Positions 8,104-30,264 of a stretch of 64,000 nucleotides of DNA are shown one piece after another (positions within the stretch are counted from its first letter, which is position 1; the number at the start of each line of letters is the position of its first letter). The stretch covers positions 774,881-838,880 of the forward strand of contig OZ220741.1 of assembly GCA_965116885.1 (NCBI GenBank), given 5' to 3'. The notes beneath the pieces are model-generated. The model did no database searches, was not told the DNA's origin, and saw only the letters and a program-made list of their open reading frames with translations. A program made the translations under genes and the position numbers. The stretch comes from Candidatus Latescibacterota bacterium. Its GTDB lineage: Bacteria; Latescibacterota; UBA2968.

Positions 8104-8931
8104 CTATTTATATTCTACACACGCCTTGAGCTTTGCCAGACCCTCTTCAGCGACCACAACAGACCCTTTTGCCCAGTAACTCGGATTAAACAACTCCAGA
8201 GACAACATCCCCTCATACCCCGCATTCTCAAACCCCGCCACAATCTCTGCCCAGGGCGCCAAACCATCCCCTGGATAAACCCGATCCGCATCTGTTATGG
8301 TATCCCTGCCGGGCGAAGCTGGATAATCATTCACATGCACCAAACCCAACTTACCCGGACCCAGATGCTCCAGCCCGTGAAAATGTCCACTCCCCTTGTA
8401 CATGTGATACACATCCGCCAGAAGCACCGTATCTGGCCGCCCGCATTCAGCCGCTACAAACAAAGCTTCACCCAGCGTACCCAGAGTCTGCGCAATACCC
8501 CAAAACTCCAGCAGCGGTCTCGCCCGAAACCCGACAACCTCATCCATCAATTCCCCATAGCGACGCGCCACAGAAAACAAATCCACATCCCGGTCCCGGA
8601 TCCCAAAAGGCGGAGCCGCGACATACGTACAATCGAGCGCATCGGCCATCTCAAAACAGCGACGCGCTTCCTCAAGCCCCTTTGCCCGCTCCTCATCCTC
8701 TGGCACAGACCACTCAAAAAACGCGATCAAATTGACAATCTGAATCCCCCTATCCGCTGCCTTATCGCGTATCTCAGACAGCGAACCACCCCCTGCAACC
8801 CACGCATCAATTTCTGCCACCCACGGCTCAATCCCCTCATACCCCGCATCCGCCGCAATATCGATGGCATCGACCACAGAAACGCCCTCATTGCGAATCG
8901 TGCTGGTATTCAAACAATACGAAAAACCCAT
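8104..8931 (-). CDS. Sugar phosphate isomerase/epimerase (xylose isomerase-like TIM barrel)
   Basis: Start MGFSYCLNTSTI with GAGGAG RBS (8941-8946, minus strand); ...GYEGIEPW...HVNDYP... pattern typical of AP endonuclease 2/xylose isomerase-like TIM barrels. Confidence 0.7.
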   Translation of the reverse strand: MGFSYCLNTSTIRNEGVSVVDAIDIAADAGYEGIEPWVAEIDAWVAGGGSLSEIRDKAADRGIQIVNLIAFFEWSVPEDEERAKGLEEARRCFEMADALDCTYVAAPPFGIRDRDVDLFSVARRYGELMDEVVGFRARPLLEFWGIAQTLGTLGEALFVAAECGRPDTVLLADVYHMYKGSGHFHGLEHLGPGKLGLVHVNDYPASPGRDTITDADRVYPGDGLAPWAEIVAGFENAGYEGMLSLELFNPSYWAKGSVVVAEEGLAKLKACVEYK

Positions 8932-9043
8932 GTTTATTCTCCTCACACAAAGACACGAAGGGATAAAAAACGACCCGTTTTACCCCGCCCGCTCCGTCTA
9001 TTCATCTGCGTCTATCTGCGTCATCTGCGGATACTTCTGTTTC

Positions 9044-10432
9044 CTATATACTCGGCAAAGGTGCCGTATCACCCGTCTCGTGCTGCCACAGGCGAATCGC
9101 CGCCGCCATACTGCGAACGCGATCCCGGTGCTCGGGCGCATCGAACAAATTATTCTCCTCAAAAGGATCGGTATTCAAATCGAACAACTCGCACTGATCG
9201 CCCGCACACAAATTCAACTTCCACCGGTCGCCCGTCACAACACAGCGCCACGGCAGCGTCGCCACCAAATTGATATCGGGAGTTCCCAAATTGCGGTCGC
9301 CAATCCCATTCCACTCCATAAACGCCATGTGCGCCTTCAAATCGCGGTCGCCCGTCAAAGCACCCGCCACACTCTCACCCTGACACTGATCTGGAATCGG
9401 TACCCCCGCCAGATCCAAAAGCGTCGGAACCAGATCCGCGTGACCAAACACCCCATCCACCCGCGTCTGCTCCGCATTCAACCACGGCACATGCATCAAA
9501 AACGGAACCCGCGCCGACTCTTCGTAAAACGCCCGCTTCTCCCACATGCGGTGATCGCCCGCCATCTCGCCGTGATCGCTCGTAAACACAAAAATCGTAT
9601 TCTCCATCTGACCCGTCTCATCCAGCGCCTGCACCATCTGACCAATGGCATCATCCACAATTTTCACATTGCCCAAATACTGCGCCCGCAACTTTCGCCA
9701 ATTCTCATCCCGCGTCATATCTTCTGCCACAACCCGCGCATCCGTGGTATTGCGATAAAAATCCGAACGCACGCGGTTAAACAGCGAATGCCCCTCTGGA
9801 TGCTTCAAAAACGTCGGTCCCACCGGAATCTCCTCCGGATCGTACAACCCGTCATAAGGTCCCCGATAAGGCGGATGCGGCTCAAACGTACTGGCAACGA
9901 GCAGCCATGGCCGCCCCGTATGCTCGCGAATAAACCGCTCGGACTCCGCGCCCACATAAGCCCCAATCTGCGCGGAAGCCGGCATCTCCGCACGTTGCTG
10001 GGGCGTAAACCTGTTGGGCACATCCGGCGCAAAGCCCTGATCCACCAACCACTGGTGGTACCCACACCCATCCGCAATACTACACCACTCGTCAAACCCG
10101 TGCTGACAGTTGCCATCATCTCCCAGATGCCACTTGCCCACATACCCCTTGCGGTACGTATCGGGCATCATCTCCGCGATGGACAACGTCTCCTCCCTCA
10201 TCGGAATCCCATTGACCACACACCCATGCGAATGCGGATAAAGCCCGGTAATCAACGACCCCCGCGCCGGCGTACAAACCGCCTGCGTCACATAGGCATT
10301 CTCAAAAACAAAACTCCGCGCAGCCAGCGCGTCATGATGCGGCGACTGAATCCACTCATTGCCATAACACGCCATCGTATCCGTGCGCTGCTGATCTGTG
10401 ATAATAACTACTATATTTGGTTGACGCGACAT
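9044..10432 (-). CDS. Sulfatase (S1 family, formylglycine-dependent)
   Basis: 462 aa; N-terminal IVVIITDQQR and C-T-P-A-R-G-S-L-I-T-G formylglycine motif. Confidence 0.9.
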   Translation of the reverse strand: MSRQPNIVVIITDQQRTDTMACYGNEWIQSPHHDALAARSFVFENAYVTQAVCTPARGSLITGLYPHSHGCVVNGIPMREETLSIAEMMPDTYRKGYVGKWHLGDDGNCQHGFDEWCSIADGCGYHQWLVDQGFAPDVPNRFTPQQRAEMPASAQIGAYVGAESERFIREHTGRPWLLVASTFEPHPPYRGPYDGLYDPEEIPVGPTFLKHPEGHSLFNRVRSDFYRNTTDARVVAEDMTRDENWRKLRAQYLGNVKIVDDAIGQMVQALDETGQMENTIFVFTSDHGEMAGDHRMWEKRAFYEESARVPFLMHVPWLNAEQTRVDGVFGHADLVPTLLDLAGVPIPDQCQGESVAGALTGDRDLKAHMAFMEWNGIGDRNLGTPDINLVATLPWRCVVTGDRWKLNLCAGDQCELFDLNTDPFEENNLFDAPEHRDRVRSMAAAIRLWQHETGDTAPLPSI

Positions 10433-10434
10433 TG

Positions 10435-11772
10435 CTATCTCTCCTGAATTTTAAAATGCCTACCTTCTTTCGCTGCTTGCCATTGGTCTTCTGTATCGAT
10501 CTCCACGCCGGGATCGCCCTGTTGATTCATCCAGCAGTCCAGTTCGGCAGACAGGCGTTTCTTCGTCTCTGCGTGCGCGGGATCATCGACCAAATTATTC
10601 AACTCACAGGGATCCTCATCCATGCGATACAACTGCTCAGGGGGACGGCGCATGTATCGATCCACCAAAAACCGCGTATGCTCATTAAACGTCGTATCAA
10701 AAACCCATGTCGGCCAGTACTGGTGCCATCTAAACTGCCCCATCAGATGCTTCTCAATATAGATCGCCTCGGGCGTCAAATTGCGAATATAGTGATACGT
10801 ACCATCCGTCACCGCGCGGATCGGATAGGGCGGACCCTCGGGAATATTATTATGCATAAAATACGCGAACTCTCGATGTGCATCTGCCTCGCCCAAAAGC
10901 ACAGACATAAAACTCGACCCATCAAAATCAATCGCATCGGGATCGCCGCCCGCAGCCTCAATCAGCGTTGGTGCGACATCTTCATACTGAATAACCGCAT
11001 CGGTATATCCCGGCTTCACCACGCCGGGCCAGCGCACGATAAAACCCGTATGAACACCCGTATTCCAATTCGTCCACTTGCACCCGGGAAACTGCGACCC
11101 CTGCTCAGACGTAAAAATCACCAGCGTATTATCCGCCTGCCCGGACTCATCCAGCACCGATAGAATCTCACCCACCTCCTGATCCAGCACCTCGATCTCC
11201 GCCAAATACTTGGCATAATCACTCCGCGTCTCCTCTGTATCCGCCAGATACGGAGGCAACTTCAACGCATCCAGATCAAAATGCTCGGGATTGCCCAGCG
11301 TCCACGGCGCGTGCGGCTCAAAAAGACCTGCCACAAGACAAAAAGGCGCATCCCGATCTTGCTCCACAAACGCGCGAATACCCTCAACGCCAAACTCGGG
11401 ATCGGGATGTGTGCATCCCCCCTCAATACCCGGCACATATTCAAAAGGAAAACTCTTATTGGGACCCACATGCTTCTTGCCACACAGCCCCACGCGATAT
11501 CCCAGATCCCCCAGAAAATGCGGAAGACTCCTCGTCCCCGGACGCGCAGCAGAATGATTCCAGCACGAACCATTGCGCGCCGGGTACAACCCCGTATAAA
11601 GTGCCGTACGGCACGGATTGCACATCGCCATAGGCAAATACGCCCGATTAAAAACCAGACCATCCCGCGCCAACCCGTCAATATTCGGCGTATCCACATT
11701 CTGCCCACCGTAAAGCGACAAATCGAGATACGTCGCATCATCTGCAATCACGATCAAAATATTCGGTCCCAT
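10435..11772 (-). CDS. Sulfatase (S1 family)
   Basis: 445 aa; ILIVIADD... and C-N-P-C-R-T-A-L-Y-T-G motif. Confidence 0.9.
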   Translation of the reverse strand: MGPNILIVIADDATYLDLSLYGGQNVDTPNIDGLARDGLVFNRAYLPMAMCNPCRTALYTGLYPARNGSCWNHSAARPGTRSLPHFLGDLGYRVGLCGKKHVGPNKSFPFEYVPGIEGGCTHPDPEFGVEGIRAFVEQDRDAPFCLVAGLFEPHAPWTLGNPEHFDLDALKLPPYLADTEETRSDYAKYLAEIEVLDQEVGEILSVLDESGQADNTLVIFTSEQGSQFPGCKWTNWNTGVHTGFIVRWPGVVKPGYTDAVIQYEDVAPTLIEAAGGDPDAIDFDGSSFMSVLLGEADAHREFAYFMHNNIPEGPPYPIRAVTDGTYHYIRNLTPEAIYIEKHLMGQFRWHQYWPTWVFDTTFNEHTRFLVDRYMRRPPEQLYRMDEDPCELNNLVDDPAHAETKKRLSAELDCWMNQQGDPGVEIDTEDQWQAAKEGRHFKIQER

Positions 11773-13211
11773 AACCCCTCCTTTTTAAGTCCCAATCGCA
11801 CCAACAACTCTGACGGCGCATCAATAGCGCGCAATTTCTCAACCATCAAATTTTGCATACGAGCCAGCGCATCGGATTCACTATCGGCGAGATCATTCTC
11901 CTGATCGGGATCCGAAGGCATGTGATACAACCGCGTCTTGTGCTTCTCGGGATGTCGCGCAGGCGTCTGCTTGCTCCGCAGCACATCGGCACCCCAATCA
12001 AACTGATTCCGATTCGCAATAATACTCGAATAAGCATACACCGGCGGATTGGACTCATCCACCCCCTGCAACAGCACATACTCCCCATCGGTAATATTGC
12101 ACGTCCCCGAAAACTGACCGTACAAAATCGCATCGCGCCCGGGCGCATCCTCATCCCTCAGAAACGGAATCAAACTCTGCCCGTGCAAATTCACCCCATC
12201 GGGCACCGCCAACCCCATGGCCTCCACCACAGTCGGAAAATAATCAACCGGCTGAACAAACTGCACGGGACGCGCACCGTGACCAAACTCGGGATGCCAC
12301 ACAATCATCGGAATCCGCGTAATCTCATTCCAGAGCACCCAATTCTTTCCCGTGCGCCCGTGATCGCCATTGTGCGTCCCGTGATCCGACGCGAGAATAA
12401 TCATCGTATTATCCATCAACCCCATATTCTCAACCTGATCCAGAAAATGCCCCACCCAGCGATCCACCATCGTCACCTCACCCGCATAAATCGCCTGCAC
12501 CCGCTTCAACTCCGCCGCCGTCAAATTGCCATCCACCCAATCGTACGGCGCCACCGGATACTCCATCACATCGTCTTCCGAATCATCGTACAACTTCACA
12601 TAGTGGCGTGGCGGATCCCATGGCTCGTGCGGATCAAAAGAATCAATCATCAAAAAGAACTCTTGATCCGCATTGTGCTGAAGCCATCGCGCCGCCCGTG
12701 AAAACAACTGCGGCGAAAACCAATCGCGTTCTTCCTTGCGGATATATTGCGCATTGCGAAAATGCGGTTGCTCGGGCCTGTTATGCGGCGGATAATCCAG
12801 CGTCCGATTCTCAAAAACAATATCCGAATCCGTCACATACCGGTCCCGCTCCTGCCCGCGCACAAAATCAAATCCCGAAAACGGACGCCAGTACCCACTG
12901 CCCGGATTGCTCGTCCAGTGGTGATACACATCCGTAAAAAAGTAGGACACCTTACCCGCCTCATGCACCGTCCCACCCAGCGTCACATCATCCGGCTCTA
13001 TACCGCCCCACCCCCGCCACGGAAACTCGTATCGCCCCGTCGCAATATCCCGGCGACACGGCAGCGTAGGATACGAAGCCAAATACGCATTCTCAAAAAC
13101 CGCGCCCCGCTCGGCAAAACGATCTATATTCGGCGTGTGAATCCGAGAATTGTCATAACACCCCACATGATCTCGACGCCAGGTATCCAGCACAATCAGA
13201 ATGACATTCAT
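11754..13211 (-). CDS. Sulfatase-family (alkaline phosphatase superfamily) protein with non-canonical active site: Thr replaces the formylglycine Cys (T-L-P-C-R-R-D-I-A-T-G)
   Basis: 485 aa; VILIVLDTWRRDH...; aligned on the conserved TG, the position of FGly-Cys is Thr and a Cys sits at +3. Confidence 0.75.
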   Translation of the reverse strand: MNVILIVLDTWRRDHVGCYDNSRIHTPNIDRFAERGAVFENAYLASYPTLPCRRDIATGRYEFPWRGWGGIEPDDVTLGGTVHEAGKVSYFFTDVYHHWTSNPGSGYWRPFSGFDFVRGQERDRYVTDSDIVFENRTLDYPPHNRPEQPHFRNAQYIRKEERDWFSPQLFSRAARWLQHNADQEFFLMIDSFDPHEPWDPPRHYVKLYDDSEDDVMEYPVAPYDWVDGNLTAAELKRVQAIYAGEVTMVDRWVGHFLDQVENMGLMDNTMIILASDHGTHNGDHGRTGKNWVLWNEITRIPMIVWHPEFGHGARPVQFVQPVDYFPTVVEAMGLAVPDGVNLHGQSLIPFLRDEDAPGRDAILYGQFSGTCNITDGEYVLLQGVDESNPPVYAYSSIIANRNQFDWGADVLRSKQTPARHPEKHKTRLYHMPSDPDQENDLADSESDALARMQNLMVEKLRAIDAPSELLVRLGLKKEGLWDRIF

Positions 13212-13221: not shown

Positions 13222-13884
13222 TCATGTTAAAACTTCTTCTACCCTCACCCGCAGATCCGCCACAGAATCACCCGCGGCATTGAGCACCACAGGACCATCA
13301 TAACCATTCGCCTTGAGCGCGCGGACCACATCCACATCATCCTCCCCAATCGTCACCATCCCGATACGTTCCACATACTTATCCACAATCCCAACAGCGT
13401 TATCAACATCCATCGCATTGAGCCAGACATGCGCGCGCTCGGGCAAATCGGGCATCAAAGCGTCAAAATCCGCCGCACTTTCCAAACACGTATCCACCCC
13501 ATTCCCGATATTCAGCGTCACATCGGGAATATTCTCAAGCAACGCATGCACACCCCTCACCAGAGCCTCACGCGCCTCGCGGGAACGCGCACCACAGAGA
13601 AAATTGGCACACCGCAAGCGGAGTGCCCGCGCCAGATGAACATCCCACTCAACCTGCCGCAAATTGGAACCCGGATCATCGCGCACATGTAACCCCATCA
13701 ACGCCACCCCCGCATCATCGAAATAATCGCGAATCATCCTCACCGAAGCATCTGGATGAAAAGGCGAACTCGCCGTAAACGCACAATGCAACACCATAGC
13801 ATCAAAACCCGCTGCCTTCGCAATCTTCAAGGCAGCGGGCAACACAGCTTTTGGACACATAACAGGATCAAAACACAAACGCAA
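13222..13884 (-). CDS. Sugar phosphate isomerase/epimerase-like TIM-barrel protein (small)
   Basis: 220 aa; hydrophobic beta/alpha pattern similar to 8104-8931 family; weak. Confidence 0.5.
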   Translation of the reverse strand: MRLCFDPVMCPKAVLPAALKIAKAAGFDAMVLHCAFTASSPFHPDASVRMIRDYFDDAGVALMGLHVRDDPGSNLRQVEWDVHLARALRLRCANFLCGARSREAREALVRGVHALLENIPDVTLNIGNGVDTCLESAADFDALMPDLPERAHVWLNAMDVDNAVGIVDKYVERIGMVTIGEDDVDVVRALKANGYDGPVVLNAAGDSVADLRVRVEEVLT

Positions 13885-13905: not shown

Positions 13906-14685
13906 TCACATCCCCTCCCAATACGCCCACATATCATCCGGATCTTCAAACTTGAGATCATCCCAATTCGTCCACCGAAAACGCGTAATAATCGCCATGC
14001 GAATCTCATCGCTGCAATTCATACTCGCGCTGTGAATCAAATGACTGTGCCAGAGCATCGCGGATCCCGCCGGCCCAGAAATCTCTTCATAATCCTCTTC
14101 ATCCCAATCGAGAATCTCCAGCGGCCTCGTCGAACGCGGCTCCCCCTCGTAAATCGGCAACTGGTAAAACGCCTTACCCAGGCTCACCCGCGAATGGGTC
14201 TTAAAATAATCCGCCATGTGCTTATGTGTCCTCGGCCACACGCAGGTACCCCCACCCTGGGGCTTCACATCATTGAGATACAGCGTAATACCCACCGTCC
14301 AATTATTCACAACACCGCTGCCAAGCCCGTGGCCATCCATATGATTACCTCTGGGACCTACCCATTCACCACCCTGTGGAAACCGCAAATTCGCCGACGT
14401 AATTGGCGGATGCAAAGGCGCCAGCCGCCCCTTACCAGCCAACTCCTCAACCATACTGTACAGCGGCGAATCGTAAATCAGCGCGTGAAATGCCGCGTGC
14501 CCATCCATCCCCTGAGACCCCTCTTTCCCAACCCACGAAGAAGGATCATTGCGATCCACAGGCAAATGATCCCAGATCACATCTCGCGCAGCTGCCATCT
14601 GCGCGGGCGTCACCACATCGCGTTTAATCACATAGCCCTTCTCTCGAAACACCTCTTTATCATCAACCGTCAAATACGCCATCAC
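13906..14685 (-). CDS. Phytanoyl-CoA dioxygenase (PhyH) family Fe(II)/2-oxoglutarate oxygenase
   Basis: 259 aa; H-M-D motif (NHMDGHG) and distal His (LIHSASM). Confidence 0.75.
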   Translation of the reverse strand: MMAYLTVDDKEVFREKGYVIKRDVVTPAQMAAARDVIWDHLPVDRNDPSSWVGKEGSQGMDGHAAFHALIYDSPLYSMVEELAGKGRLAPLHPPITSANLRFPQGGEWVGPRGNHMDGHGLGSGVVNNWTVGITLYLNDVKPQGGGTCVWPRTHKHMADYFKTHSRVSLGKAFYQLPIYEGEPRSTRPLEILDWDEEDYEEISGPAGSAMLWHSHLIHSASMNCSDEIRMAIITRFRWTNWDDLKFEDPDDMWAYWEGM

Positions 14686-19216: not shown

Positions 19217-19373
19217 ACGCTCCTCCATTAAATAAACCCGAGCCAATTTAATACGACAACATCTCTATATCAACCCTCTTCTGGCACCACTATGAATCTG
19301 GTTGACACACCAATGCTACAGATGATACTATTATATTTCCGTGGAAACAACAGAACAAAGGGAAGGACAAAAA

Positions 19374-23441: not shown

Positions 23442-23490
23442 TGAACAATTATCAGGTCTTTTTCAGATCTTCCCTGGCCAGATCATCCAT

Positions 23491-24879
23491 TTAATAAATC
23501 AGCCGGCCTTTGCGTAGCGCAGGCTCATTGTAGCGCTCCATCTGGGCAATCAGCTCAGCTTTAAACTTCTCGGCAATCTCTTTGTATTCGGGATCGGAAT
23601 ATACGTTGACCAGCTCATCCGGGTCCTTATGCAGATCGTACAACCAGGGATCATCAACCTGTGAGAGAACCAGTTTATAACGTCGGTTAACGGCCATAAC
23701 GGTCTGCGATCCTGAAGTAGTCATATAGACAATGCGATCATCATCTACCACCTTTTCATCACCGAGAAACGCCGCAGCATCATTTAACCCATGGGCATCT
23801 GGAATCTCCTCCTCAATCCCCATAATACCCAGAATCGTCGGACCGAAATCAACCGTCGTATAGGCGGTATTCACAACTTTCCCCGGCGCGATCTTCTCCG
23901 GCCAGCGAATCACAAACGGAATCTTTGCACTGCCCTCGTAGGGCATCCCCTTGTTGTGGCGTCTATGTTCGCCCATCAGGTCGCCGTGATCGGCAGTAAA
24001 AATTACGATCGTATTCTGATCCAACCCCCCGGCTTCCAGATCTGCCAGAATGCGCCCCACATTATCGTCGATGCATTTGACCATCCCAAAATACCTCTGC
24101 ATCTGCCTCTGATTCAGCTCATGGGCCGTATTCCTGTCTCCAAACCGGTGCCATTTCGGCATTTTCTCCACAGGAAAATCCATCGTGCGCGGATTTTGAA
24201 AAACCATGTCTTTGTACATCGTATCGTAGGGCGCGCGAACCGTATTTGGCCCGTGCGGATCCGGGATAGAAACCATAATGCAAAAGGGTTGATTCTGATC
24301 GCGCTCGATAATTTCCAGGGTGCGGATAGTCAACCAATCAGTTGTAAACGATTTTTCGTCGGCATCATCTACTCTGCTGGCAGGTCCACCCCTGTTGTTC
24401 CTCGCCGCAACATAGGGCGTGCCATCATCTTTCAACCCAAGTTTCTTCCAGTGACCGCGGTTCCACATATACCGATTGTCTTCAAAACCGAATTTGTGCT
24501 CTGGCGCAAAACCGGGCTTGGCTTCTCCACCCAGATGCCACTTGCCGAGATATGAGGTGGCATAACCCTGATTCTTGAGCACCTCGGCAAACGTGATCAG
24601 CCCCTCTTTCAGGGGAATGTCGTTTTTATAAACATCGGTAGCAATCGGATAAAGACCGGAAACAAAAGAAGCACGCGAAGGCGAACAAACAGGCGACGAC
24701 GAATAATAACTGTCGCAAATAGCACCGTCCCGCGCGAGCGAATCAATATGCGGCGTATCTACTTTAACGCCTGGTCCCCAGACAAAAGCCTGATCCTCCG
24801 TCATCAAATCGCGATAACAACCCAATGTGCGAAAATTGTGTTCATCGGTATGAATAATCAGCAGATTCGGTTTACTCAT
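23491..24879 (-). CDS. Sulfatase (S1 family)
   Basis: 462 aa; NLLIIHTDEH and C-S-P-S-R-A-S-F-V-S-G. Confidence 0.9.
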   Translation of the reverse strand: MSKPNLLIIHTDEHNFRTLGCYRDLMTEDQAFVWGPGVKVDTPHIDSLARDGAICDSYYSSSPVCSPSRASFVSGLYPIATDVYKNDIPLKEGLITFAEVLKNQGYATSYLGKWHLGGEAKPGFAPEHKFGFEDNRYMWNRGHWKKLGLKDDGTPYVAARNNRGGPASRVDDADEKSFTTDWLTIRTLEIIERDQNQPFCIMVSIPDPHGPNTVRAPYDTMYKDMVFQNPRTMDFPVEKMPKWHRFGDRNTAHELNQRQMQRYFGMVKCIDDNVGRILADLEAGGLDQNTIVIFTADHGDLMGEHRRHNKGMPYEGSAKIPFVIRWPEKIAPGKVVNTAYTTVDFGPTILGIMGIEEEIPDAHGLNDAAAFLGDEKVVDDDRIVYMTTSGSQTVMAVNRRYKLVLSQVDDPWLYDLHKDPDELVNVYSDPEYKEIAEKFKAELIAQMERYNEPALRKGRLIY

Positions 24880-24894
24880 TTGGTTCTCCCTTAC

Positions 24895-25611
24895 TCAAAC
24901 TGGGCCAGCCGCCCATCTTACAGCCTTTTCCACCAGATAACCCAGTGCGTCTGTCTTTTCGGGATGCGCGCTAAAACAAAATACACGGCCTTTTTCAAAC
25001 TGCGTGCGAACAATGGCTGAAGTGCCTGGCATAACGCCTTCAGGCGCACCTTTTTTTGCGATCTCAGTGCGGTATAGAGCAAGACATTCGTAATCGGGGA
25101 CGAGTGGATCATCCGATTCACGGCGTCCCAGCAGCGGTCCCTGACCATAGAAAATCTGAAGATTTTTCTCCTTGATCCCAAACAACTTCTGGGCATCCGA
25201 AGACAGTTCAATCGTCACAATGCCAGTGCCCCGCGCCCAGTGTTCTCGGTCTATCACCTTTGCATCTATCAAGTCGAGAGACCACAGGTAGTCATTGGTC
25301 GCAAGATAGGCTCCGGCACAGATCCCGATAAAACCGCCTCCCTCTTTTACAAATTCCCGCACTGCTTCTCTCCCCTTTGACTCCAGGGCACGCCCTTGCT
25401 TTCCACCGCTACCACCGGGTTGGATGAGAACATCCACCTCCGAGAGCTTACCCCCACGAATTGCCAGAGCGTCCATCCTGACGATCTCGAAATCCGGCTT
25501 TGCCTTTGCCTTGCCGAGCACTTCGAGAAGTTCCGCGCAACTTGGACCAGCGCCTTCGCCCTCATACACAGCGATCCGAATCCGGGTATTTTTTATTTTC
25601 TTTTCACTCAT
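24895..25611 (-). CDS. Class I glutamine amidotransferase-like / BPL_N-type domain protein
   Basis: Start MSEKKIKN; ...EGGGFIGICAGAYLAT... nucleophile-elbow-like motif. Confidence 0.5.
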   Translation of the reverse strand: MSEKKIKNTRIRIAVYEGEGAGPSCAELLEVLGKAKAKPDFEIVRMDALAIRGGKLSEVDVLIQPGGSGGKQGRALESKGREAVREFVKEGGGFIGICAGAYLATNDYLWSLDLIDAKVIDREHWARGTGIVTIELSSDAQKLFGIKEKNLQIFYGQGPLLGRRESDDPLVPDYECLALYRTEIAKKGAPEGVMPGTSAIVRTQFEKGRVFCFSAHPEKTDALGYLVEKAVRWAAGPV

Positions 25612-26443
25612 ATTGCACAACCGGTGGTTTTGATGGCTCAATAGGCCGAATAATCTTTCGACGGGCGGGCGTCAATCTCGCCACCAACTCATCGGAATAT
25701 TCATACCCCAAACGATCTCGGGTCCAAAAAGACGAATACCGATAAATCAATGCGCGGCGCTCTCCTTCGTTGGTCCTCACACTGGCACCGTGAATAAGTG
25801 CATCAGTAAACACAACGGCATCTCCCGCCTTGAGATGCACCTCCTTGAGAAGGGGAGCCATATCACCGGGCTCGAGAACATAATCCTTCCTGCCCTGCCT
25901 TTTCTGATGCACCAGCGGATTTGGAAGATTGGACTTATGGGACCCGGGAACGACCAGTGTCCCACCATCCCCGGGACCAATATCATTCAGCGCCAGGAGA
26001 ATGTTCAAATTGCCACAGAAAAATTTATTGTCGTGATATTCAAAACTCGTGCGATACATCTTATTGTGACCGCCAGCATGCAACCTCACATGGCTCCCAC
26101 GACGGATGATCGGAAGAAAATTCATCCAGATGTGCAAACCGTGGTTATCCACGTACCGCTTGACAAACTCGATCCAGTTCGGATTATCGATCAACGCCTC
26201 AAAACACGAACCCCCTTCGATAACATTTCTGAAACTCACACTGTGACTATTGGTATTTTCATTTTTCACAACATGAACATTGCCCAACCATTCCTCACCA
26301 GCGTCGCTCAAAACAAGCCATTCATCAACCTTCTCATTGATCTCGGCAATAAGCTCTGGCTGCACGGCGTTTTCCAGAATGAGGAAGCCCTCAAGATCAA
26401 AACAATAGTCATCCCATTTATCGGGCATAGGTGTCATAGTCAT
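25604..26443 (-). CDS. PhyH-family dioxygenase-like protein, HxG variant (LHAGGH), paralog of 26457-27293
   Basis: 279 aa; no HxD/E upstream of distal His (ALIHGASV); about 55% identical to the next gene. Confidence 0.7.
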   Translation of the reverse strand: MTMTPMPDKWDDYCFDLEGFLILENAVQPELIAEINEKVDEWLVLSDAGEEWLGNVHVVKNENTNSHSVSFRNVIEGGSCFEALIDNPNWIEFVKRYVDNHGLHIWMNFLPIIRRGSHVRLHAGGHNKMYRTSFEYHDNKFFCGNLNILLALNDIGPGDGGTLVVPGSHKSNLPNPLVHQKRQGRKDYVLEPGDMAPLLKEVHLKAGDAVVFTDALIHGASVRTNEGERRALIYRYSSFWTRDRLGYEYSDELVARLTPARRKIIRPIEPSKPPVVQYE

Positions 26444-26456
26444 ATCCCCTAAAAAA

Positions 26457-27293
26457 TCATGCAGTCACAGATTGAACAGGCGGTCTTATCGGCACAACAG
26501 GCCGCACAATTTTTCTGCGTGCAGGCGTGAGCCTGGCGAGCAATTCTTCTGACGGCTCAAAACCAGTAGCATTTTTCATCCAAAACGCAGTGTATCGATA
26601 AATCAGTATCCTGCGCTCGCCATCATTAGTCCGCACACTGGCACCGTGTGTACACGCATCCGTAAAAATAACAGCATCTCCAGCATCGAGATGCATTTCC
26701 TTTAAATAGGGCCTCAATTTCGTCTCCTCAACCGCAGTCTTATGTCGCCCATTCTCCGCCTCAAAAACCAGAGGATTAACCACATTGCATTTATGTGATC
26801 CAGGCACAATCATAGTACCGCCATCCCCCGGACCAATATCGTTCAGCGCGAGTAAAACATTGAAATTGCCACAATAGAAATTATCGTTATGATATCGAAA
26901 ACTGGTGCGATAACTCTTATTATGCCCACCGGAATGCACAGGTACATAGCTACCTTTTCGACTGACAGACAGATGGTTCGCCCAGATGTACAACCCATCA
27001 TTATCGACATAGCGCTTCACGTACTCGAGCCAATTGGGATTATCGATCAACGCCTCAAAAGCTGGTCCACCCTCAATAATATTGGCAAACTTAATATCGG
27101 GACCCTTTACGGGTTCGGGATCGCTACCGCGAACATGACCGATCCATTTGTGTCCGGCCTCGTGTAAAGCAACCCACTCATCAACCGTCTCATTAATCTC
27201 CGCAATCAACTCTGGGGAAACGACATCCTTCAGAACGAGATATCCCTGAAGATCAAAACGGTAATCATCCCATTCAGTGGGTGAGGGTACCAT
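26457..27293 (-). CDS. PhyH-family dioxygenase-like protein, HxG variant (VHSGGH)
   Basis: 278 aa; tandem paralog of 25604-26443. Confidence 0.7.
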   Translation of the reverse strand: MVPSPTEWDDYRFDLQGYLVLKDVVSPELIAEINETVDEWVALHEAGHKWIGHVRGSDPEPVKGPDIKFANIIEGGPAFEALIDNPNWLEYVKRYVDNDGLYIWANHLSVSRKGSYVPVHSGGHNKSYRTSFRYHNDNFYCGNFNVLLALNDIGPGDGGTMIVPGSHKCNVVNPLVFEAENGRHKTAVEETKLRPYLKEMHLDAGDAVIFTDACTHGASVRTNDGERRILIYRYTAFWMKNATGFEPSEELLARLTPARRKIVRPVVPIRPPVQSVTA

Positions 27294-27421
27294 ATTTTTT
27301 CTCCTTATTTATCAACGCGAATGCCCCCAGTGTGCCCAGAACCCAATCGAAACCACTGGGGGCAATTGTACTGCTGTCAAGATTCCCACGTTGCTTTAAA
27401 TCGTACCATACAATTTCCCTG

Positions 27422-28516
27422 TTATTCACAGTACAACTTCGCCACGGCAATCGCATCCTCTTCCCAGCAGGTATAAAACAAATACAACTGACCATCTTCT
27501 TTGAAGGCATAAGAATCGTGCACCACATCGCCCTCCCAATCCTCCTCAGCGCGGACCATATCTTCGGGGGGATAACTCGTCTGCCACGTCCGCCAATCGC
27601 CTGCACTCAAATCCACAGTCGAACGCATAATATATTCCGGCTCCTCCCATTTTCGGCTGTAAAACACCTCCAGCGTCTCGCCGTCTTCCATCACCCGCAC
27701 AGACCCGTGGCGCAGACCCAACCCCCCATTGGGAAGATGATCACCCGCCAGCCCATCGGCGACGAGATCATCTTCAATAGGCGACGACTCAGCAGACACC
27801 CACAGAGGGTCGCTCGTATTCCAACCCTCTGGCGCATCCCACGGACATTCGGGATCAGCCGGCTCTAAAAAAAATCCGCGCTGTGCAAAACCGTACCAAT
27901 CGCCGCGATAGGTAAACACCCGCAAATAATTTCGATCCGCAAATTTCAACCTTTTCAATCCATGGCCTTCTTCCCCACCTACCTCGGGACGGTTAAAATT
28001 CAACCCGGACTTCGACGTCGCCACAAATGAACGCTGGCCATCATTGCTCTTCCCGTGAACCACCATGATAAAATGCCGATTATCCTCATCCACAATCACC
28101 TCGGGAGACGACACATGCCCCGTCAACACAATGCCATCTACCACATCAATCGTCTCAGTCTCATTGCCCAGCCGCAAATCAAACACCCCGCGCCCCGGAA
28201 AACGCGGATCATCCAATCTCCCGGCATTAAAAATCGTCCAATCCGCCGAATCCACCCGATCTGACCACGCCATGTGAATACTCGTCCCGTGATGCGACGC
28301 AAAATAGAGATAATAATTCGCATCCGAATGTGCCCGATCTTCCGCAGACACCCAATCGGGAATCCGAACCACCGTGGGAAACATCGCATCGCCGCGCAAC
28401 CTCGAGCGATTGGGATCTGCGCCAATTCTGAGCCGCCGCACATCATTTCCCTCGACAATCGGCCTGCCGTGCAATTTCTCGACCCGATAAGTTACTACAC
28501 CCATACATTCCTCCAT
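27422..28516 (-). CDS. Hypothetical protein, possibly beta-propeller glycoside hydrolase-like
   Basis: 364 aa, Trp/Asp-rich, no secure motif; embedded in sulfatase/PhyH block. Confidence 0.4.
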   Translation of the reverse strand: MEECMGVVTYRVEKLHGRPIVEGNDVRRLRIGADPNRSRLRGDAMFPTVVRIPDWVSAEDRAHSDANYYLYFASHHGTSIHMAWSDRVDSADWTIFNAGRLDDPRFPGRGVFDLRLGNETETIDVVDGIVLTGHVSSPEVIVDEDNRHFIMVVHGKSNDGQRSFVATSKSGLNFNRPEVGGEEGHGLKRLKFADRNYLRVFTYRGDWYGFAQRGFFLEPADPECPWDAPEGWNTSDPLWVSAESSPIEDDLVADGLAGDHLPNGGLGLRHGSVRVMEDGETLEVFYSRKWEEPEYIMRSTVDLSAGDWRTWQTSYPPEDMVRAEEDWEGDVVHDSYAFKEDGQLYLFYTCWEEDAIAVAKLYCE

Positions 28517-28519
28517 AAT

Positions 28520-29476
28520 TCAACGGCGTTCATTCAGCGACGTCCAACCGCGTCCCGGGGTGTGAACCTTCTTTCTATCCCACTCCCTCCGCAACGCGGC
28601 AAATTCCCCGGGATCTCGCATCTCGCGCTCGGGATTTTGCGTATCCTGAATCACGAAATACGCCTCACCCGGATGGCACGCCATCGTCACTGGCTCGCGT
28701 TCTGGCGTATAATCTTCGGGCACCTCGCCGATATTGCTCGGCACGCCAAAATCCTGATATCGCAAATCCATACTCCACCGCACAATATCCGTCTTGTTTT
28801 CAAACGAAGCATGCGGCGTCAAATTCGTCAAAAACAAAACCGACCCCGCCGACATCTCCACAGGTATCGCACCCTCGGGAACATTTTCAGGTGCAATTTC
28901 CAAAAAGCCCGCGTGCCCACCCGTATAATGTCGAATAATCCCCTTATCCTGCACCTTTGGAATCACCCACAAACACCCATTATCCAGCGTCGCATCCACC
29001 AGCGGTACCCAACACGTCACCATCAAATACTCGTAACAATGCGCCATTGAATAACCCGCATCCTGATGCCACGGCACCTCCCCGCGCGAATAGCCCGGCA
29101 CCTTGGGACGTATGCGATAAATCGACGTACCGACGATATTGGGACCAATAATATCCTCAATACACGCAATCAACGGCCGATGCCGCAACGCCTTCAAAAT
29201 CCCCGGCCCGTGAAACCTGCCCGACCAGATCGACATCAACACCTTGTGGGCGGCCTCCGGATTGTACCGATTAAGCCTCGTCAGCCGCGTCTCAAACGGC
29301 TCCTCAGCAAAATCGCGGTCCAGCTCGCCTTCGGCAATCAACTCATCGCACTTCTCCTGAACCGCGCCCGTCAACCCATCCTTCAAAAGTTGCAAATCGT
29401 CCGAAGAATAAATGGATTCTTTAACCACATAACCAAGCTCTTTGAATTGTCTAACTTCCTCTGCTGTAAGCCCCAT
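28520..29476 (-). CDS. PhyH-family Fe(II)/2OG dioxygenase
   Basis: Start MGLTAEEV (RBS AAAGGAAA); classic VPWHQDAGY motif. Confidence 0.75.
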   Translation of the reverse strand: MGLTAEEVRQFKELGYVVKESIYSSDDLQLLKDGLTGAVQEKCDELIAEGELDRDFAEEPFETRLTRLNRYNPEAAHKVLMSIWSGRFHGPGILKALRHRPLIACIEDIIGPNIVGTSIYRIRPKVPGYSRGEVPWHQDAGYSMAHCYEYLMVTCWVPLVDATLDNGCLWVIPKVQDKGIIRHYTGGHAGFLEIAPENVPEGAIPVEMSAGSVLFLTNLTPHASFENKTDIVRWSMDLRYQDFGVPSNIGEVPEDYTPEREPVTMACHPGEAYFVIQDTQNPEREMRDPGEFAALRREWDRKKVHTPGRGWTSLNERR

Positions 29477-29493
29477 AGATATTTCCTTTCCGA

Positions 29494-30264
29494 TCACATC
29501 ACCACTGGTTGCCGCCCGCCAATCGACGGCGGCTCCATAATCCGTCGCTGCTGATCTGTCACATTGGGATAATCGTCTGGATTGTAATAATTCTGTGCCC
29601 ACGCCGAATGTCCCGGACTGAATTTATACAGCAATGAACGGCGCTCGTGCTCGCCTTCCCAGGGCATTGTTCCGTGCACCAGAGCCTCTGTAAAAATGAT
29701 CATATCCCCAGCCTCTGCTTCGGGCTGATGTACATAGTGCGCTGGCCGCTCAAAATTGCGCACATCGTTGGGAATATTGACAAAATTGCTCTTATGCGAC
29801 CCGGGAACACAGGCAAAGCCGCCATCCCCTTTGCGCGCGGGCGCAAGATTATACGTAAACACCGTCAACCCATTGCGCATCACGCCATCATGGTATTTGT
29901 ACCAATGATCGCCCGGCACACCCGCCTGCAGTGATGGCCCACCGTGCAATCGCCCGCGTCTCGCGCCCTTCTTCATAAAAATAGAATAATCGTGATCCAC
30001 GCGAAACGTCGGCCCCAACAACTCAATCATATACGGCAACGCATTGGGATGATCGAACAACGCCTGCGTCTCTGGACCCCACATTGAAACGCGACTCGTG
30101 CGGCGGTGCCCATCTTTTTCGTCGTCAGGATCAGCCCATACCTCATCGGCCAACTTATTCAGCGCATCCACCTCATCTGCACTCAACACATCTTTAACAA
30201 CCAAAAACCCCTGCAAATCAAATCGAAACTTCTCTTCCGGTGTCATAATGGCCTCCGTTTCCAT
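29494..30264 (-). CDS. PhyH-family dioxygenase-like protein, HxG variant (RLHGGP)
   Basis: 256 aa; distal His in FTEALVHGT; no HxD/E found. Confidence 0.7.
   Translation of the reverse strand: METEAIMTPEEKFRFDLQGFLVVKDVLSADEVDALNKLADEVWADPDDEKDGHRRTSRVSMWGPETQALFDHPNALPYMIELLGPTFRVDHDYSIFMKKGARRGRLHGGPSLQAGVPGDHWYKYHDGVMRNGLTVFTYNLAPARKGDGGFACVPGSHKSNFVNIPNDVRNFERPAHYVHQPEAEAGDMIIFTEALVHGTMPWEGEHERRSLLYKFSPGHSAWAQNYYNPDDYPNVTDQQRRIMEPPSIGGRQPVVM

What the first reader, a model, noticed from the sequence alone, without database searches (positions are those of the whole stretch)
8104..30264. 22-kb largely minus-strand block interleaving 8 sulfatases with 6 PhyH-family dioxygenases
Twenty genes run on the minus strand, many separated by 0-4 nt or overlapping (ATGA-type coupling at 14682/14685, 25604/25611 and 30264). 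The only interruption is a low-GC two-gene insert at about 19.3-21.6 kb, whose PhyH gene is on the plus strand. The block encodes formylglycine-type sulfatases, six PhyH-superfamily Fe/2OG oxygenases, TIM-barrel isomerase-like proteins, a cupin, a beta-helix glycosidase-like protein and a GATase1-like protein. There is no SusC/D, ABC or PTS importer. Sulfatase-rich loci are known in sulfated-glycan degraders. A 6-fold expansion of PhyH-type oxygenases inside such a locus is not a described pathway architecture. It suggests oxidative tailoring, for example hydroxylation or oxidative desulfation, or catabolism of a sulfated substrate, possibly an aliphatic or isoprenoid sulfate ester rather than a glycan.
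Basis: partly seen in the sequence, partly recalled or inferred. Interest (0 to 1): 0.75.

Follow-up and report, generated by a model that had tools for sequence, protein, structure and literature searches.

The report
Sulfatase and sugar-oxygenase gene island
An uncultured Latescibacterota bacterium carries a conserved, tightly packed block of eight cytoplasmic carbohydrate-type sulfatases mixed with six very different iron/2-oxoglutarate oxygenases, most likely for breaking down imported sulfated sugar chains by a partly oxidative route that nobody has characterised.

Summary
Pfam finds 8 sulfatases and 6 PhyH-family oxygenases in 8104-30264, none elsewhere in the window, packed with gaps of -19 to +21 nt.

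The window comes from Candidatus Latescibacterota. The block is syntenic in seven related species genomes, and every gene tested has dN/dS of 0.05-0.19.

The "6-fold expansion" is really at least four unrelated PhyH lineages:
- PhyH2 resembles KanJ, an amino-sugar deaminating dioxygenase.
- PhyH3, PhyH4 and PhyH6 share the unusual relocated-acid iron site and the fold of HygX, a sugar-cyclising oxygenase.
- PhyH5 is a canonical WHQD type.
- PhyH1 has no solved relative.

The evidence points to a glycan, not an isoprenoid:
- All eight sulfatases lack signal peptides, so they are cytoplasmic.
- The three classified match carbohydrate subfamilies S1_15, S1_11 and S1_30.
- An MFS transporter and a secreted chondroitinase-ABC-type PL8 lyase lie just downstream on the same strand.
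- A conserved unknown gene models as a GH43/GH130-like beta-propeller.

Outside this lineage the same oxygenase families sit in sugar-uptake loci, rarely beside sulfatases. My searches found no paper on such an architecture. The oxygenase chemistry is unresolved.

Verdict: a new variant of a sulfated-glycan utilisation locus, interest about 0.6.

The parts
1721..4816 (-). Secreted PL8 polysaccharide lyase with chondroitinase-ABC-type architecture (Lyase_N + Lyase_catalyt + Lyase_8 + Lyase_8_C). Signal peptide after an internal Met. Probable extracellular depolymerase feeding the locus.
   Evidence: Pfam, (Lyase_catalyt E 4e-72). N-terminus. Same strand as the block. The functional link is inferred.
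4828..6093 (-). MFS transporter, the candidate importer of acidic or sulfated oligosaccharides.
   Evidence: Pfam MFS_1 E 3e-29. Weak NCBIfam similarity to lactate and galactonate transporters, below cut-off.
6187..8050 (-). Low-GC insert of three unknown ORFs that separates the block from the MFS and PL8 genes. Probably not part of the pathway.
   Evidence: GC 0.39-0.45. No Pfam or PADLOC hits.
8104..8946 (-). TIM1: xylose-isomerase-like TIM barrel. Nearest solved relative is IolI inosose isomerase. Candidate keto-sugar isomerase or lyase.
   Evidence: Pfam AP_endonuc_2 E 9e-29. PDB 1i60 E 7e-11.
9044..10432 (-). Sulf1: cytoplasmic Cys-type S1 sulfatase (CTPAR).
10435..11772 (-). Sulf2: cytoplasmic Cys-type S1 sulfatase (CNPCR).
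11754..13211 (-). Sulf3: sulfatase-fold protein with Thr in place of the formylglycine Cys (TLPCR). Either inactive or a different esterase.
13222..13884 (-). TIM2: weak, short xylose-isomerase-like TIM barrel.
   Evidence: Pfam E 4e-5, below the gathering score.
13906..14685 (-). PhyH1: Fe/2OG oxygenase with the canonical triad H115-x-D117...H218 and R229. No solved relative. Start overlaps the Sulf4 stop.
14682..16136 (-). Sulf4: cytoplasmic sulfatase, S1_15-like (GalNAc/Gal-6-O-sulfatase type).
   Evidence: PDB 6s20 E 2e-71 and 9bas 'S1_15A'.
16139..16552 (-). Small single-domain cupin (137 aa).
   Evidence: Pfam Cupin_2 E 5e-18. Kept next to Sulf4 and Sulf5 in L002 and L010.
16553..17941 (-). 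Sulf5: cytoplasmic sulfatase, S1_11-like (GlcNAc-6 / L-Gal-6-sulfatase type).
   Evidence: PDB 5g2v E 9e-124 and 7lha E 4e-109.
17954..19246 (-). Sulf6: cytoplasmic Cys-type S1 sulfatase.
19341..20222 (+). PhyH2: KanJ-like Fe/2OG dioxygenase (H138-x-D140...H219, R230). The only plus-strand gene. It has a promoter-like site at 19302-19329. The opposite orientation is conserved in relatives.
   Evidence: PDB KanJ E 3e-35..
20337..21620 (-). Secreted right-handed beta-helix (pectate-lyase-like) protein. Present in only some relatives.
   Evidence: Weak Pfam hit below the gathering score. Signal peptide. Synteny.
21633..23441 (-). Sulf7: cytoplasmic Cys-type S1 sulfatase with a C-terminal extension (602 aa).
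23491..24879 (-). Sulf8: cytoplasmic sulfatase of subfamily S1_30. Always follows the PhyH3/4 genes in relatives.
   Evidence: PDB 9ihk 'Sulfatase_S1_30A' E 2e-146. Synteny.
24895..25641 (-). GATase1-fold protein (BPL_N / ThuA-like). Start probably the ATG at 25611. Present in only some relatives.
25604..26443 (-). PhyH3: HygX-like Fe/2OG oxygenase with a relocated acid ligand (H122-A-G124 ... D214-x3-H218, R229).
26457..27293 (-). PhyH4: paralogue of PhyH3 (62% identity) with the same variant site (H120-S-G122 ... D212-x3-H216).
27422..28516 (-). unk364: cytoplasmic five-bladed beta-propeller with a GH43/GH130/GH117-like fold. Member of a very small unnamed family.
   Evidence: No Pfam hit. 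29 homologues, one carrying PF04616. AF2 model pLDDT 92. Foldseek TM about 0.5.
28520..29476 (-). PhyH5: canonical PhyH-type oxygenase (WH179QD181 ... H274, R285, in the 360-aa ORF numbering). Its family is 53-58% identical across phyla.
29494..30264 (-). PhyH6: HygX-like variant site (H107-G-G109 ... E193-x3-H197, R208). About 28% identical to PhyH3/4.
30264..31061 (-). AAA_22 P-loop ATPase at the head of the transcription unit. Separated from PhyH6 by insertions in several relatives, so probably not part of the pathway.
31158..31187 (-). Best sigma-70-like promoter match (TTGACA-18-TATATT, 11 of 12) in the divergent intergenic region upstream of the block.
   Evidence: A consensus match only.

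Best explanation
This is a lineage-specific catabolic island of an uncultured, probably host-associated, Latescibacterota bacterium. It degrades sulfated glycan fragments inside the cytoplasm.

Proposed sequence of steps:
1. A secreted PL8 chondroitinase-ABC-type lyase, and perhaps the secreted beta-helix protein, cuts a sulfated glycosaminoglycan-like polymer outside the cell.
2. The MFS transporter imports the fragments.
3. Seven signal-peptide-less Cys-type S1 sulfatases of different carbohydrate subfamilies (S1_15, S1_11, S1_30 and others) remove individual sulfate esters.
4. The six divergent Fe(II)/2-oxoglutarate oxygenases act on the sugar residues themselves. They do not act on a phytanoyl or isoprenoid chain. 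PhyH2 most likely deaminates a free C2 amine oxidatively to a 2-keto sugar, as KanJ does. The HygX-like PhyH3, PhyH4 and PhyH6 abstract hydrogen from a sugar carbon that carries oxygen. This would break or rearrange a bond that hydrolases cannot attack.
5. The TIM-barrel isomerase-like proteins, the cupin and the ThuA-like protein handle the resulting keto-sugars. The beta-propeller cleaves a glycosidic bond.

Shown: gene content, cytoplasmic location, intact catalytic motifs, family assignments, synteny and purifying selection. Inferred: that the genes form one pathway, the identity of the substrate, and every reaction assigned to the oxygenases.
For: - Composition and packing.
- All eight sulfatase domains begin at residues 2-20 of the maximal ORFs, which leaves no room for a signal peptide. 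Seven carry CxPxR.
- Carbohydrate subfamilies: Sulf4 matches S1_15, Sulf5 matches S1_11, and Sulf8 matches S1_30 at E 2e-146.
- The MFS and the signal-peptide PL8 lyase lie on the same strand downstream.
- PhyH2 matches KanJ at E 3e-35.
- The PhyH3 family matches HygX best by sequence and by fold (TM 0.65-0.74). It shares the D/E-x3-H relocated acid, and HxG stands where HxD/E normally is (HygX motif described in PMC13374393).
- All six keep the distal His and an Arg at +11.
- unk364 has a GH43/GH130-like propeller fold.
- Outside this lineage, PhyH3-family genes sit beside sugar ABC permeases, a MalK-type ATPase, AraC and LacI regulators, Gfo/Idh/MocA and SDR genes. In a Kiritimatiellales locus they sit among GH78-like, GH65, GH29 and sulfatase genes.
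- The block is syntenic in seven species-level genomes, with dN/dS of 0.05-0.19 for every gene tested.
- The pair 'HygX-like PhyH directly upstream of a sulfatase' recurs with different sulfatase types in other Latescibacterota: L009, L064 and L036.
- Sponge-associated Latescibacterota are reported as a polysaccharide- and glycosaminoglycan-degrading guild (PMC8163846).
Against: - No expression or biochemical data exist.
- The canonical glycosaminoglycan steps were not found in the window: no GH88 unsaturated glucuronyl hydrolase, KduI/KduD or hexosaminidase.
- The block has no reductase (KanK-like, Gfo/Idh/MocA or SDR) to dispose of keto-sugars.
- A low-GC three-gene insert separates the block from the MFS and PL8 genes. 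I could not test whether that adjacency is conserved in relatives.
- The syntenic relatives are close (dS 0.15-0.6). Shared order therefore partly reflects recent ancestry.
- The PhyH3 and PhyH5 families are rarely next to sulfatases outside this lineage, so the link is not universal.
- Similarity to KanJ and HygX is remote and does not fix the substrate.
- Five of the eight sulfatases were not assigned to a subfamily.
Confidence: 0.5

Rival explanations
1. Accretion without a shared pathway. The genome is very rich in both sulfatases and PhyH genes, as reported for sponge-symbiont Poribacteria. This region would then be a flexible island where members of abundant families accumulate, each with its own substrate, and co-orientation would be incidental.
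For: - PhyH genes make up more than 1.9% of all genes in Poribacteria (PMC3909097).
- The block shows high gene flux among close relatives: extra sulfatases, losses, pseudogene fragments of PhyH1, PhyH2, Sulf6 and Sulf7, and toxin-antitoxin insertions.
- Neither the PhyH3 nor the PhyH5 family has a conserved sulfatase neighbour in other phyla.
Against: - All 14 members of the two families in the 64 kb fall within one run of 20 genes.
- Start and stop codons overlap between a sulfatase and a PhyH gene.
- The modules PhyH6-PhyH5-propeller-PhyH3/4-S1_30 and S1_11-cupin-S1_15-PhyH1 are invariant wherever they can be seen.
- The PhyH-sulfatase pair recurs independently with other sulfatase types in L009 and L064.
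Confidence: 0.2
2. Oxidative desulfation. Some or all of the PhyH enzymes would hydroxylate the carbon that bears a sulfate ester, as the TauD-family alkylsulfatase AtsK does, releasing sulfate and a keto-sugar. They would remove esters that the hydrolytic S1 sulfatases cannot reach.
For: - The two families are tightly interleaved and their genes overlap.
- Keto-sugar-handling folds are present: an IolI-like TIM barrel, a cupin and a ThuA-like protein.
- The chemistry is established for AtsK (my background knowledge, not a tool result).
Against: - None of the six matches the TauD/AtsK family. All Pfam hits are PF05721 or PF13759.
- Seven apparently competent hydrolytic sulfatases are already present.
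- The same PhyH families occur in other phyla in sugar loci that have no sulfatase or sulfate context.
Confidence: 0.12
3. A non-glycan substrate. The locus would degrade sulfated lipids, sterols or terpenoids. The PhyH enzymes would hydroxylate the aliphatic chain.
For: - The family name and a weak similarity of PhyH5 to human PHYH and PHYHD1 (E 3e-5 to 4e-8).
- Sulf4 also matches steryl-sulfatase and arylsulfatase A, but less well (E 1e-47).
Against: - The best sulfatase matches are carbohydrate subfamilies.
- There are no acyl-CoA ligase, thiolase, lyase or beta-oxidation genes in or beside the block.
- A PL8 lyase, a glycosidase-like propeller and a sugar-isomerase-like TIM barrel are present.
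- PhyH2 and PhyH3/4/6 resemble sugar-acting enzymes.
Confidence: 0.08
4. A biosynthetic cluster for an aminoglycoside- or orthosomycin-like glycoside, since KanJ and HygX are biosynthetic enzymes.
For: The nearest solved relatives of four of the six PhyH proteins are antibiotic-pathway enzymes.
Against: - The block has no glycosyltransferase, aminotransferase, sugar-nucleotide, methyltransferase or resistance genes.
- Eight sulfatases have no place in such a pathway.
- Identity to HygX is only about 21%.
Confidence: 0.03

Closest known systems
Sulfatase-rich polysaccharide utilisation loci for glycosaminoglycans and algal sulfated glycans (Bacteroidota PULs; the sulfatase islands of Planctomycetota, Kiritimatiellota and Lentisphaerota)
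   Same: Several S1 sulfatases of different subfamilies (S1_11, S1_15, S1_30) are clustered with a polysaccharide lyase (PL8) and a transporter, and the genes are co-oriented.
   Different: - There is no SusC/SusD pair.
- All sulfatases are cytoplasmic rather than periplasmic.
- There are almost no classical glycoside hydrolases: no GH88, GH20 or GH2.
- Six Fe/2OG oxygenases are interleaved, which I found in no published locus.
KanJ, kanamycin B dioxygenase (PhyH family)
   Same: PhyH2 aligns over residues 29-242 at E 3e-35 and has a canonical HxD...H triad with an Arg at +11.
   Different: KanJ is a biosynthetic enzyme in an antibiotic cluster and works with the reductase KanK. Here the context is catabolic and no reductase is adjacent. 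The substrate is unknown.
HygX, the orthoester synthase of hygromycin B biosynthesis
   Same: - It is the best sequence and fold match of PhyH3.
- It shares the relocated acidic ligand (D/E-x3-H), which aligns directly to PhyH3. By motif, PhyH4 and PhyH6 have it too.
- Gly stands at the usual acid position.
   Different: - Identity is only about 21%.
- HygX Lys137 aligns to an Asn in the PhyH3 family.
- The PhyH3 family is widespread in sugar-uptake loci of many phyla, not in antibiotic clusters.
AtsK, the Fe/2OG alkylsulfatase of the TauD family
   Different: It belongs to a different family (PF02668). None of the six proteins matches that family.
The PhyH-gene expansion of sponge-symbiont Poribacteria (Kamke et al. 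2014, PMC3909097)
   Same: An uncultured, polysaccharide-degrading, sulfatase-rich lineage carries many highly divergent PhyH genes of unknown function.
   Different: That report is a genome-wide count with no link to sulfatase loci. Here the PhyH genes are physically interleaved with sulfatases.
Oxidative 3-keto-glycoside cleavage pathways (Gfo/Idh/MocA oxidase plus a xylose-isomerase-like TIM-barrel lyase; ThuA/ThuB)
   Same: A xylose-isomerase-like TIM barrel and a ThuA-like protein are present. The concept of oxidising a sugar so that a glycosidic bond can be cleaved without hydrolysis also fits.
   Different: There is no Gfo/Idh/MocA oxidase in the block. An Fe/2OG oxygenase would have to supply the keto group, and this has not been demonstrated anywhere.

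Membership tests
S1 formylglycine-dependent sulfatases | PF00884 sulfatase domain above the gathering score | tested here: met
   All eight, E 1e-37 to 1e-52.
S1 formylglycine-dependent sulfatases | C/S-x-P/A-x-R motif at the catalytic position | tested here: met
   Seven of eight carry CxPxR. Sulf3 has Thr (TLPCR), so that one protein fails this feature.
S1 formylglycine-dependent sulfatases | A maturation enzyme (FGE or anSME) encoded in the genome | not testable with these tools
   None was found among the window ORFs scanned. The rest of the genome was not available.
Fe(II)/2-oxoglutarate oxygenases, PhyH family (PF05721) | Pfam PF05721 above the gathering score | tested here: met
   Six proteins score 46.6-78.6 bits against a cut-off of 22.
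Fe(II)/2-oxoglutarate oxygenases, PhyH family (PF05721) | HxD/E...H facial triad | tested here: inconclusive
   Met in PhyH1, PhyH2 and PhyH5. PhyH3, PhyH4 and PhyH6 have HxG with D/E-x3-H instead. This is the HygX variant, which is still an active iron site.
Fe(II)/2-oxoglutarate oxygenases, PhyH family (PF05721) | Arg that binds the 2OG C5-carboxylate, about 11 residues after the distal His | tested here: met
   Present in all six, read directly from the sequences. The role of this Arg is taken from knowledge of human PHYH.
Phytanoyl-CoA 2-hydroxylase proper (isoprenoid acyl-CoA alpha-oxidation) | Close similarity to PHYH, with companion acyl-CoA ligase and 2-hydroxyacyl-CoA lyase genes | tested here: not met
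   The best match to human PHYH (2a1x) is E 3e-5 for PhyH5 and 7e-3 for PhyH3. The window has no acyl-CoA pathway genes.
HygX-type oxygenases | H-x-G ... E/D-x3-H metal site | tested here: met
   D214-x3-H218 aligns to the E-x3-H of HygX. In 20 family members, H122 is conserved in at least 90% and G124 is invariant. The HxG register against HygX is inferred, not aligned.
HygX-type oxygenases | Fold closest to HygX | tested here: met
   The top 15 Foldseek PDB hits are all HygX, TM 0.64-0.74. The model has pLDDT 83.
HygX-type oxygenases | Orthosomycin or aminoglycoside biosynthetic context and orthoester formation | tested here: not met
   No biosynthetic genes are nearby. The reaction cannot be tested here.
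KanJ-type dioxygenases | Significant full-domain similarity to KanJ | tested here: met
   PhyH2 matches at E 3e-35, 125 bits, over residues 29-242.
KanJ-type dioxygenases | A partner NAD(P)H reductase (KanK-like) for the 2-keto product | tested here: not met
   The block contains no oxidoreductase.
AtsK/TauD-type oxidative sulfatases | TauD family domain (PF02668) | tested here: not met
   No such Pfam hit for any of the six proteins.
Bacteroidota-type PUL | Adjacent SusC/SusD pair | tested here: not met
   None in the window. TonB, ExbB and ExbD lie upstream and are transcribed divergently.
Glycosaminoglycan (chondroitin sulfate) utilisation locus | Glycosaminoglycan lyase plus 6-O/4-O/2-O exo-sulfatases | tested here: met
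   A PL8 chondroitinase-ABC-type lyase, with S1_15-like and S1_11-like sulfatases.
Glycosaminoglycan (chondroitin sulfate) utilisation locus | GH88 unsaturated glucuronyl hydrolase and the KduI/KduD route | tested here: not met
   No PF07470 or KduI/KduD hit in the window. These genes may lie elsewhere in the genome.

The most novel reading that the evidence does not exclude
PhyH-family Fe/2OG oxygenases would form an unrecognised oxidative branch of sulfated-glycan catabolism. In the cytoplasm they would take the place of missing glycosidases, hexosamine deaminases or demethylases. They would oxidise sugar carbons: KanJ-like deamination to 2-keto sugars, and HygX-like hydrogen abstraction at carbons bearing glycosidic, sulfate or ether oxygens. 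The bonds would then fall apart or be eliminated by TIM-barrel and cupin enzymes. If true, this would also explain the long-unexplained, very large PhyH gene expansions in sulfatase-rich sponge symbionts such as Poribacteria.
Probability: 0.25. Interest if true: 0.85.

Novelty: new variant of a known kind. Interest (0 to 1): 0.6.

Why it matters
Sulfated glycans such as animal glycosaminoglycans and algal fucans, carrageenans and ulvans are a large carbon pool. Their breakdown is understood almost wholly as hydrolases, lyases and sulfatases.

A conserved locus where most partners of the sulfatases are oxygen-dependent Fe/2OG enzymes related to sugar-modifying oxygenases suggests new enzymology. 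Candidate reactions are oxidative deamination, bond cleavage, and removal of non-hydrolysable decorations.

It also offers a concrete, testable handle on an open question: why some uncultured symbiont lineages carry hundreds of PhyH genes. The six genes, their neighbouring sulfatases and the new beta-propeller are a ready set of expression targets.

If instead the genes are only co-located, the finding reduces to an unusual but ordinary sulfatase island.

Tried and rejected
- Exact-sequence look-ups of the window's PhyH3 and Sulf1 found nothing on record. I therefore could not fetch this genome's own flanks, nor test whether MFS-PL8 adjacency is conserved in relatives. The fetched loci stop within the block.
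- NCBIfam gave no sulfatase subfamily. All hits were far below the cut-offs.
- PADLOC found nothing meaningful for the low-GC insert or for AAA22.
- Ten literature searches found no paper linking PhyH genes to sulfatase loci. Combinations tried included phytanoyl-CoA dioxygenase or PhyH with sulfatase, polysaccharide, symbiont, glycosaminoglycan or sponge, and ketoglutarate-dependent dioxygenase with PUL.
- Searches for 'S1_30' were swamped by unrelated 'S130' matches. The substrate of the S1_30 structure 9ihk is therefore unknown to me.
- Kamke et al. 2013 could not be retrieved.
- I tested whether the PhyH3 and PhyH5 families are generally sulfatase-linked. They are not. Outside Latescibacterota, only 1 of about 68 loci for the PhyH3 family had a sulfatase. 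For the PhyH5 family, 5 of 46 loci of at least 6 kb did. The PhyH5 family has no conserved neighbour at all.
- I considered and rejected a halogenase reading of the HxG motif. The acid is relocated as in HygX, not lost.
- I rejected the long plus-strand ORFs 8864-10447 and 16262-17932 as antisense artefacts over Pfam-supported sulfatases.
- The promoter and terminator scans were no better than shuffled controls overall.
- The search of protein representatives was not used, because it returns no genomic context.

Full report
**Observation**

ORF listing and Pfam scans confirm the reported content of 8104-30264.
- Eight PF00884 sulfatases.
- Six PF05721 PhyH-family Fe/2OG oxygenases.
- A clear xylose-isomerase-like TIM barrel (8104-8946) and a weak one (13222-13884).
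- A 137-aa cupin.
- A secreted beta-helix protein with only a sub-threshold pectate-lyase-like match.
- A BPL_N/ThuA-like GATase1-fold protein.
- One 364-aa protein with no Pfam hit.

A six-frame HMM/phmmer scan finds no other sulfatase or PhyH ORF in the 64 kb. Gene spacing is mostly -19 to +21 nt.

Minor corrections:
- 19 genes are on the minus strand and one on the plus strand.
- The PhyH2/beta-helix pair is not compositionally distinct (GC 0.505 and 0.481, against a block range of 0.47-0.565).
- PhyH5 most likely starts at 29476.
- Two long plus-strand ORFs are antisense artefacts.

**Surroundings**

- a low-GC (0.39-0.45) insert of three unknown ORFs at 6187-8050;
- an MFS transporter at 4828-6093;
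- a 1031-aa PL8 lyase with the chondroitinase-ABC domain set and a signal peptide at 1721-4816.

Upstream lies an AAA_22 ATPase, then a divergent intergenic region with the best promoter-like site. Beyond that are GT2, TonB/ExbB/ExbD, ECF sigma and RND efflux genes. So 'no importer' holds only within the stated coordinates.

**Sulfatases**

In all eight, the Pfam domain starts at residue 2-20 of the longest possible ORF. None can carry a signal peptide, so they are cytoplasmic. Seven have CxPxR. Sulf3 has Thr at the formylglycine position.

PDB comparisons place three of them in carbohydrate subfamilies:
- Sulf4 with S1_15 GalNAc-6-O-sulfatases (6s20, 9bas);
- Sulf5 with S1_11 GlcNAc-6 / L-Gal-6-sulfatases (5g2v, 7lha);
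- Sulf8 with 'Sulfatase_S1_30A' (9ihk, E 2e-146).

The paralogues are only 22-35% identical to each other, so they form a collected set of specificities. The other five were not classified, because NCBIfam was uninformative.

**Oxygenases**

They are not an expansion. PhyH3 and PhyH4 are 62% identical. PhyH6 is about 28% identical to those two. PhyH1, PhyH2 and PhyH5 are essentially undetectable to each other by BLASTP.

- PhyH2 matches KanJ (kanamycin B dioxygenase) at E 3e-35.
- PhyH5 is a canonical WHQD enzyme. Its family is 53-58% identical across Chloroflexota and Verrucomicrobiota.
- PhyH1 has no solved relative.
- PhyH3, PhyH4 and PhyH6 lack HxD/E. They have HxG, with an acidic residue four positions before the distal His.

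A 2026 review describes exactly this H-x-G...E-x3-H arrangement for HygX, the orthoester synthase of hygromycin B (PMC13374393). HygX is also the best sequence hit of the PhyH3 family, and the D/E-x3-H segment aligns directly. It is the best fold hit as well, with TM 0.65-0.74 (model pLDDT 83).

All six keep the distal His and an Arg 11 residues later, so all look catalytically competent. The two identifiable reference enzymes both act on aminoglycoside sugar rings.

**The unknown gene**

unk364 has only 29 homologues among 5.8 billion proteins, and one of them carries a GH43 domain. Its AlphaFold model (pLDDT 92) is a five-bladed beta-propeller. It resembles GH43, GH130 and GH117 enzymes and a GalNAc deacetylase at TM about 0.5 and 10-15% identity. 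This is a carbohydrate-active fold from an undescribed family.

**Organism and conservation**

The closest genomes are Candidatus Latescibacterota MAGs, with PhyH3 up to 97% identical. In seven species-level genomes the order is retained at 72-98% amino-acid identity:

AAA22 - PhyH6 - PhyH5 - propeller - PhyH4/3 - (GATase) - S1_30 sulfatase - Sulf7 - (beta-helix) - PhyH2 (opposite strand) - Sulf6 - S1_11 - cupin - S1_15 - PhyH1

Gene gains, losses, fragments and toxin-antitoxin insertions occur between the genes. dN/dS is 0.05-0.19 for every gene tested in the window 13906-31061, at dS 0.15-1.05. The genes are therefore maintained, but the relatives are close and shared order is only modest evidence.

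More telling is independent recurrence. A PhyH3-like gene directly followed by a sulfatase of a different type appears at another locus (L001/L009) and in distant Latescibacterota (L064, and L036 at 2 kb). One Kiritimatiellales locus places a PhyH3-like gene among GH78-like, GH65, GH29, MFS and sulfatase genes.

Proteins at least 90% identical have been assembled hundreds of times. Some carry NCBI locus tags that I recall as sponge-metagenome MAGs; this is unverified. Sponge-associated Latescibacterota are described as a polysaccharide- and glycosaminoglycan-degrading guild (PMC8163846).

**Breadth of the association**

- PhyH3 family: 70 loci from other phyla at 42-48% identity. One has a sulfatase within 10 kb. 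Recurrent neighbours are sugar ABC permeases, a MalK-type ATPase, AraC and LacI regulators, Gfo/Idh/MocA and SDR genes.
- PhyH5 family: 5 of 46 metagenomic loci of at least 6 kb have a sulfatase, and there is no conserved neighbour.

The families are therefore carbohydrate-associated in general. The marriage with sulfatases is a Latescibacterota speciality, perhaps shared with Kiritimatiellota.

**Most likely mechanism**

This is a cytoplasmic pathway for imported sulfated glycan fragments:
1. PL8 depolymerises the polymer outside the cell.
2. The MFS transporter imports the fragments.
3. The sulfatases strip sulfate esters.
4. The oxygenases modify sugar residues. PhyH2 would deaminate like KanJ. 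PhyH3/4/6 would abstract hydrogen like HygX at an oxygen-bearing carbon.
5. The TIM-barrel, cupin and ThuA-like proteins handle keto-sugars.
6. The propeller cleaves a glycosidic bond.

I put this at about 0.5. The individual reactions are inference.

Weak points:
- GH88, KduI/KduD and any reductase are absent from the window.
- The low-GC insert separates the block from MFS and PL8.
- There are no expression data.

Rivals:
- Accretion of abundant families without a joint pathway (0.2). Gene flux supports it. So does the known PhyH abundance in Poribacteria (PMC3909097).
- AtsK-like oxidative desulfation (0.12). There is no TauD-family match.
- A lipid, sterol or isoprenoid sulfate substrate (0.08). 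The sulfatase subfamilies and all the sugar-related folds speak against it.
- A biosynthetic cluster (0.03).

**Comparison with known systems and novelty**

This is a member of the broad class of sulfatase-rich glycan utilisation loci. It departs from every described example in three ways:
- it has no SusC/SusD pair;
- its sulfatases are entirely cytoplasmic;
- oxygenases stand where glycosidases normally do.

None of the ten full-text searches found a paper describing PhyH-type or other 2OG oxygenases in such loci. The nearest published remark is the unexplained PhyH expansion in Poribacteria.

I rate it a new variant of a known kind, with interest 0.6. The most novel reading not excluded is that these oxygenases form an oxidative branch of sulfated-glycan catabolism, which would explain PhyH expansions in symbionts. 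I give that a probability of about 0.25, and high interest if true.

Noticed in passing
window 6187-8050: Three minus-strand ORFs (187, 188 and 277 aa) with GC 0.39-0.45 against about 0.52 around them. None has a Pfam or PADLOC match. They sit between the block and the MFS/PL8 genes and look like a foreign insertion.
   Followed up: partly
window 11754-13211: Sulf3 has Thr at the formylglycine position (TLPCR instead of CxPxR). It is either an inactive sulfatase or an alkaline-phosphatase-superfamily esterase with a Thr nucleophile.
   Followed up: partly
window 27422-28516: This protein has only 29 detectable homologues among 5.8 billion sequences. Its confident model is a five-bladed beta-propeller distantly like GH43, GH130 and GH117. 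It may represent an undescribed carbohydrate-active family.
   Followed up: yes
window 1-31000: GC skew is very strong, about -0.3 (coding strand G-rich), across the minus-strand genes. The plus-strand genes at 31-49 kb show only +0.05 to +0.17. The skew goes with long spurious antisense ORFs at 8864-10447 and 16262-17932.
   Followed up: no
window 42703-46281: A 1192-aa protein with five fibronectin type III domains and a Rha78A-like Ig domain. Such proteins are reported as enriched in sponge symbionts (PMC8163846).
   Followed up: no
window 54560-57034: An 824-aa ORF with no Pfam or PADLOC match.
   Followed up: no
L002 5797-6183, 8283-8684, 13910-15953: In a syntenic relative, Fic, PIN and MNT/HepT toxin-antitoxin-type genes are inserted between the oxygenase and sulfatase genes. 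The HepT-like domain is called in one gene with a sulfatase. The block seems to be a hot spot for such insertions.
   Followed up: no
L037 8768-9955: In a Kiritimatiellales glycan locus, a URO-D-like protein lies immediately upstream of the PhyH3-like gene. This fold is used by corrinoid methyltransferases, which hints at a link to methyl-ether sugars.
   Followed up: no
window 28520-29476; alignment A2: The PhyH5 family is unusually conserved: 53-58% identity across Latescibacterota, Chloroflexota and Verrucomicrobiota, with about 90 invariant columns. Yet it has no conserved gene neighbour, which suggests a specific but unknown housekeeping-like substrate.
   Followed up: partly
L001/L009 9148-12240: A minimal PhyH4-PhyH3-sulfatase trio sits at an unrelated genomic site in another Latescibacterota genome. 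Its sulfatase is of a different type (28% identity to Sulf4). DUF1800 genes and a sulfatase fragment lie nearby.
   Followed up: partly
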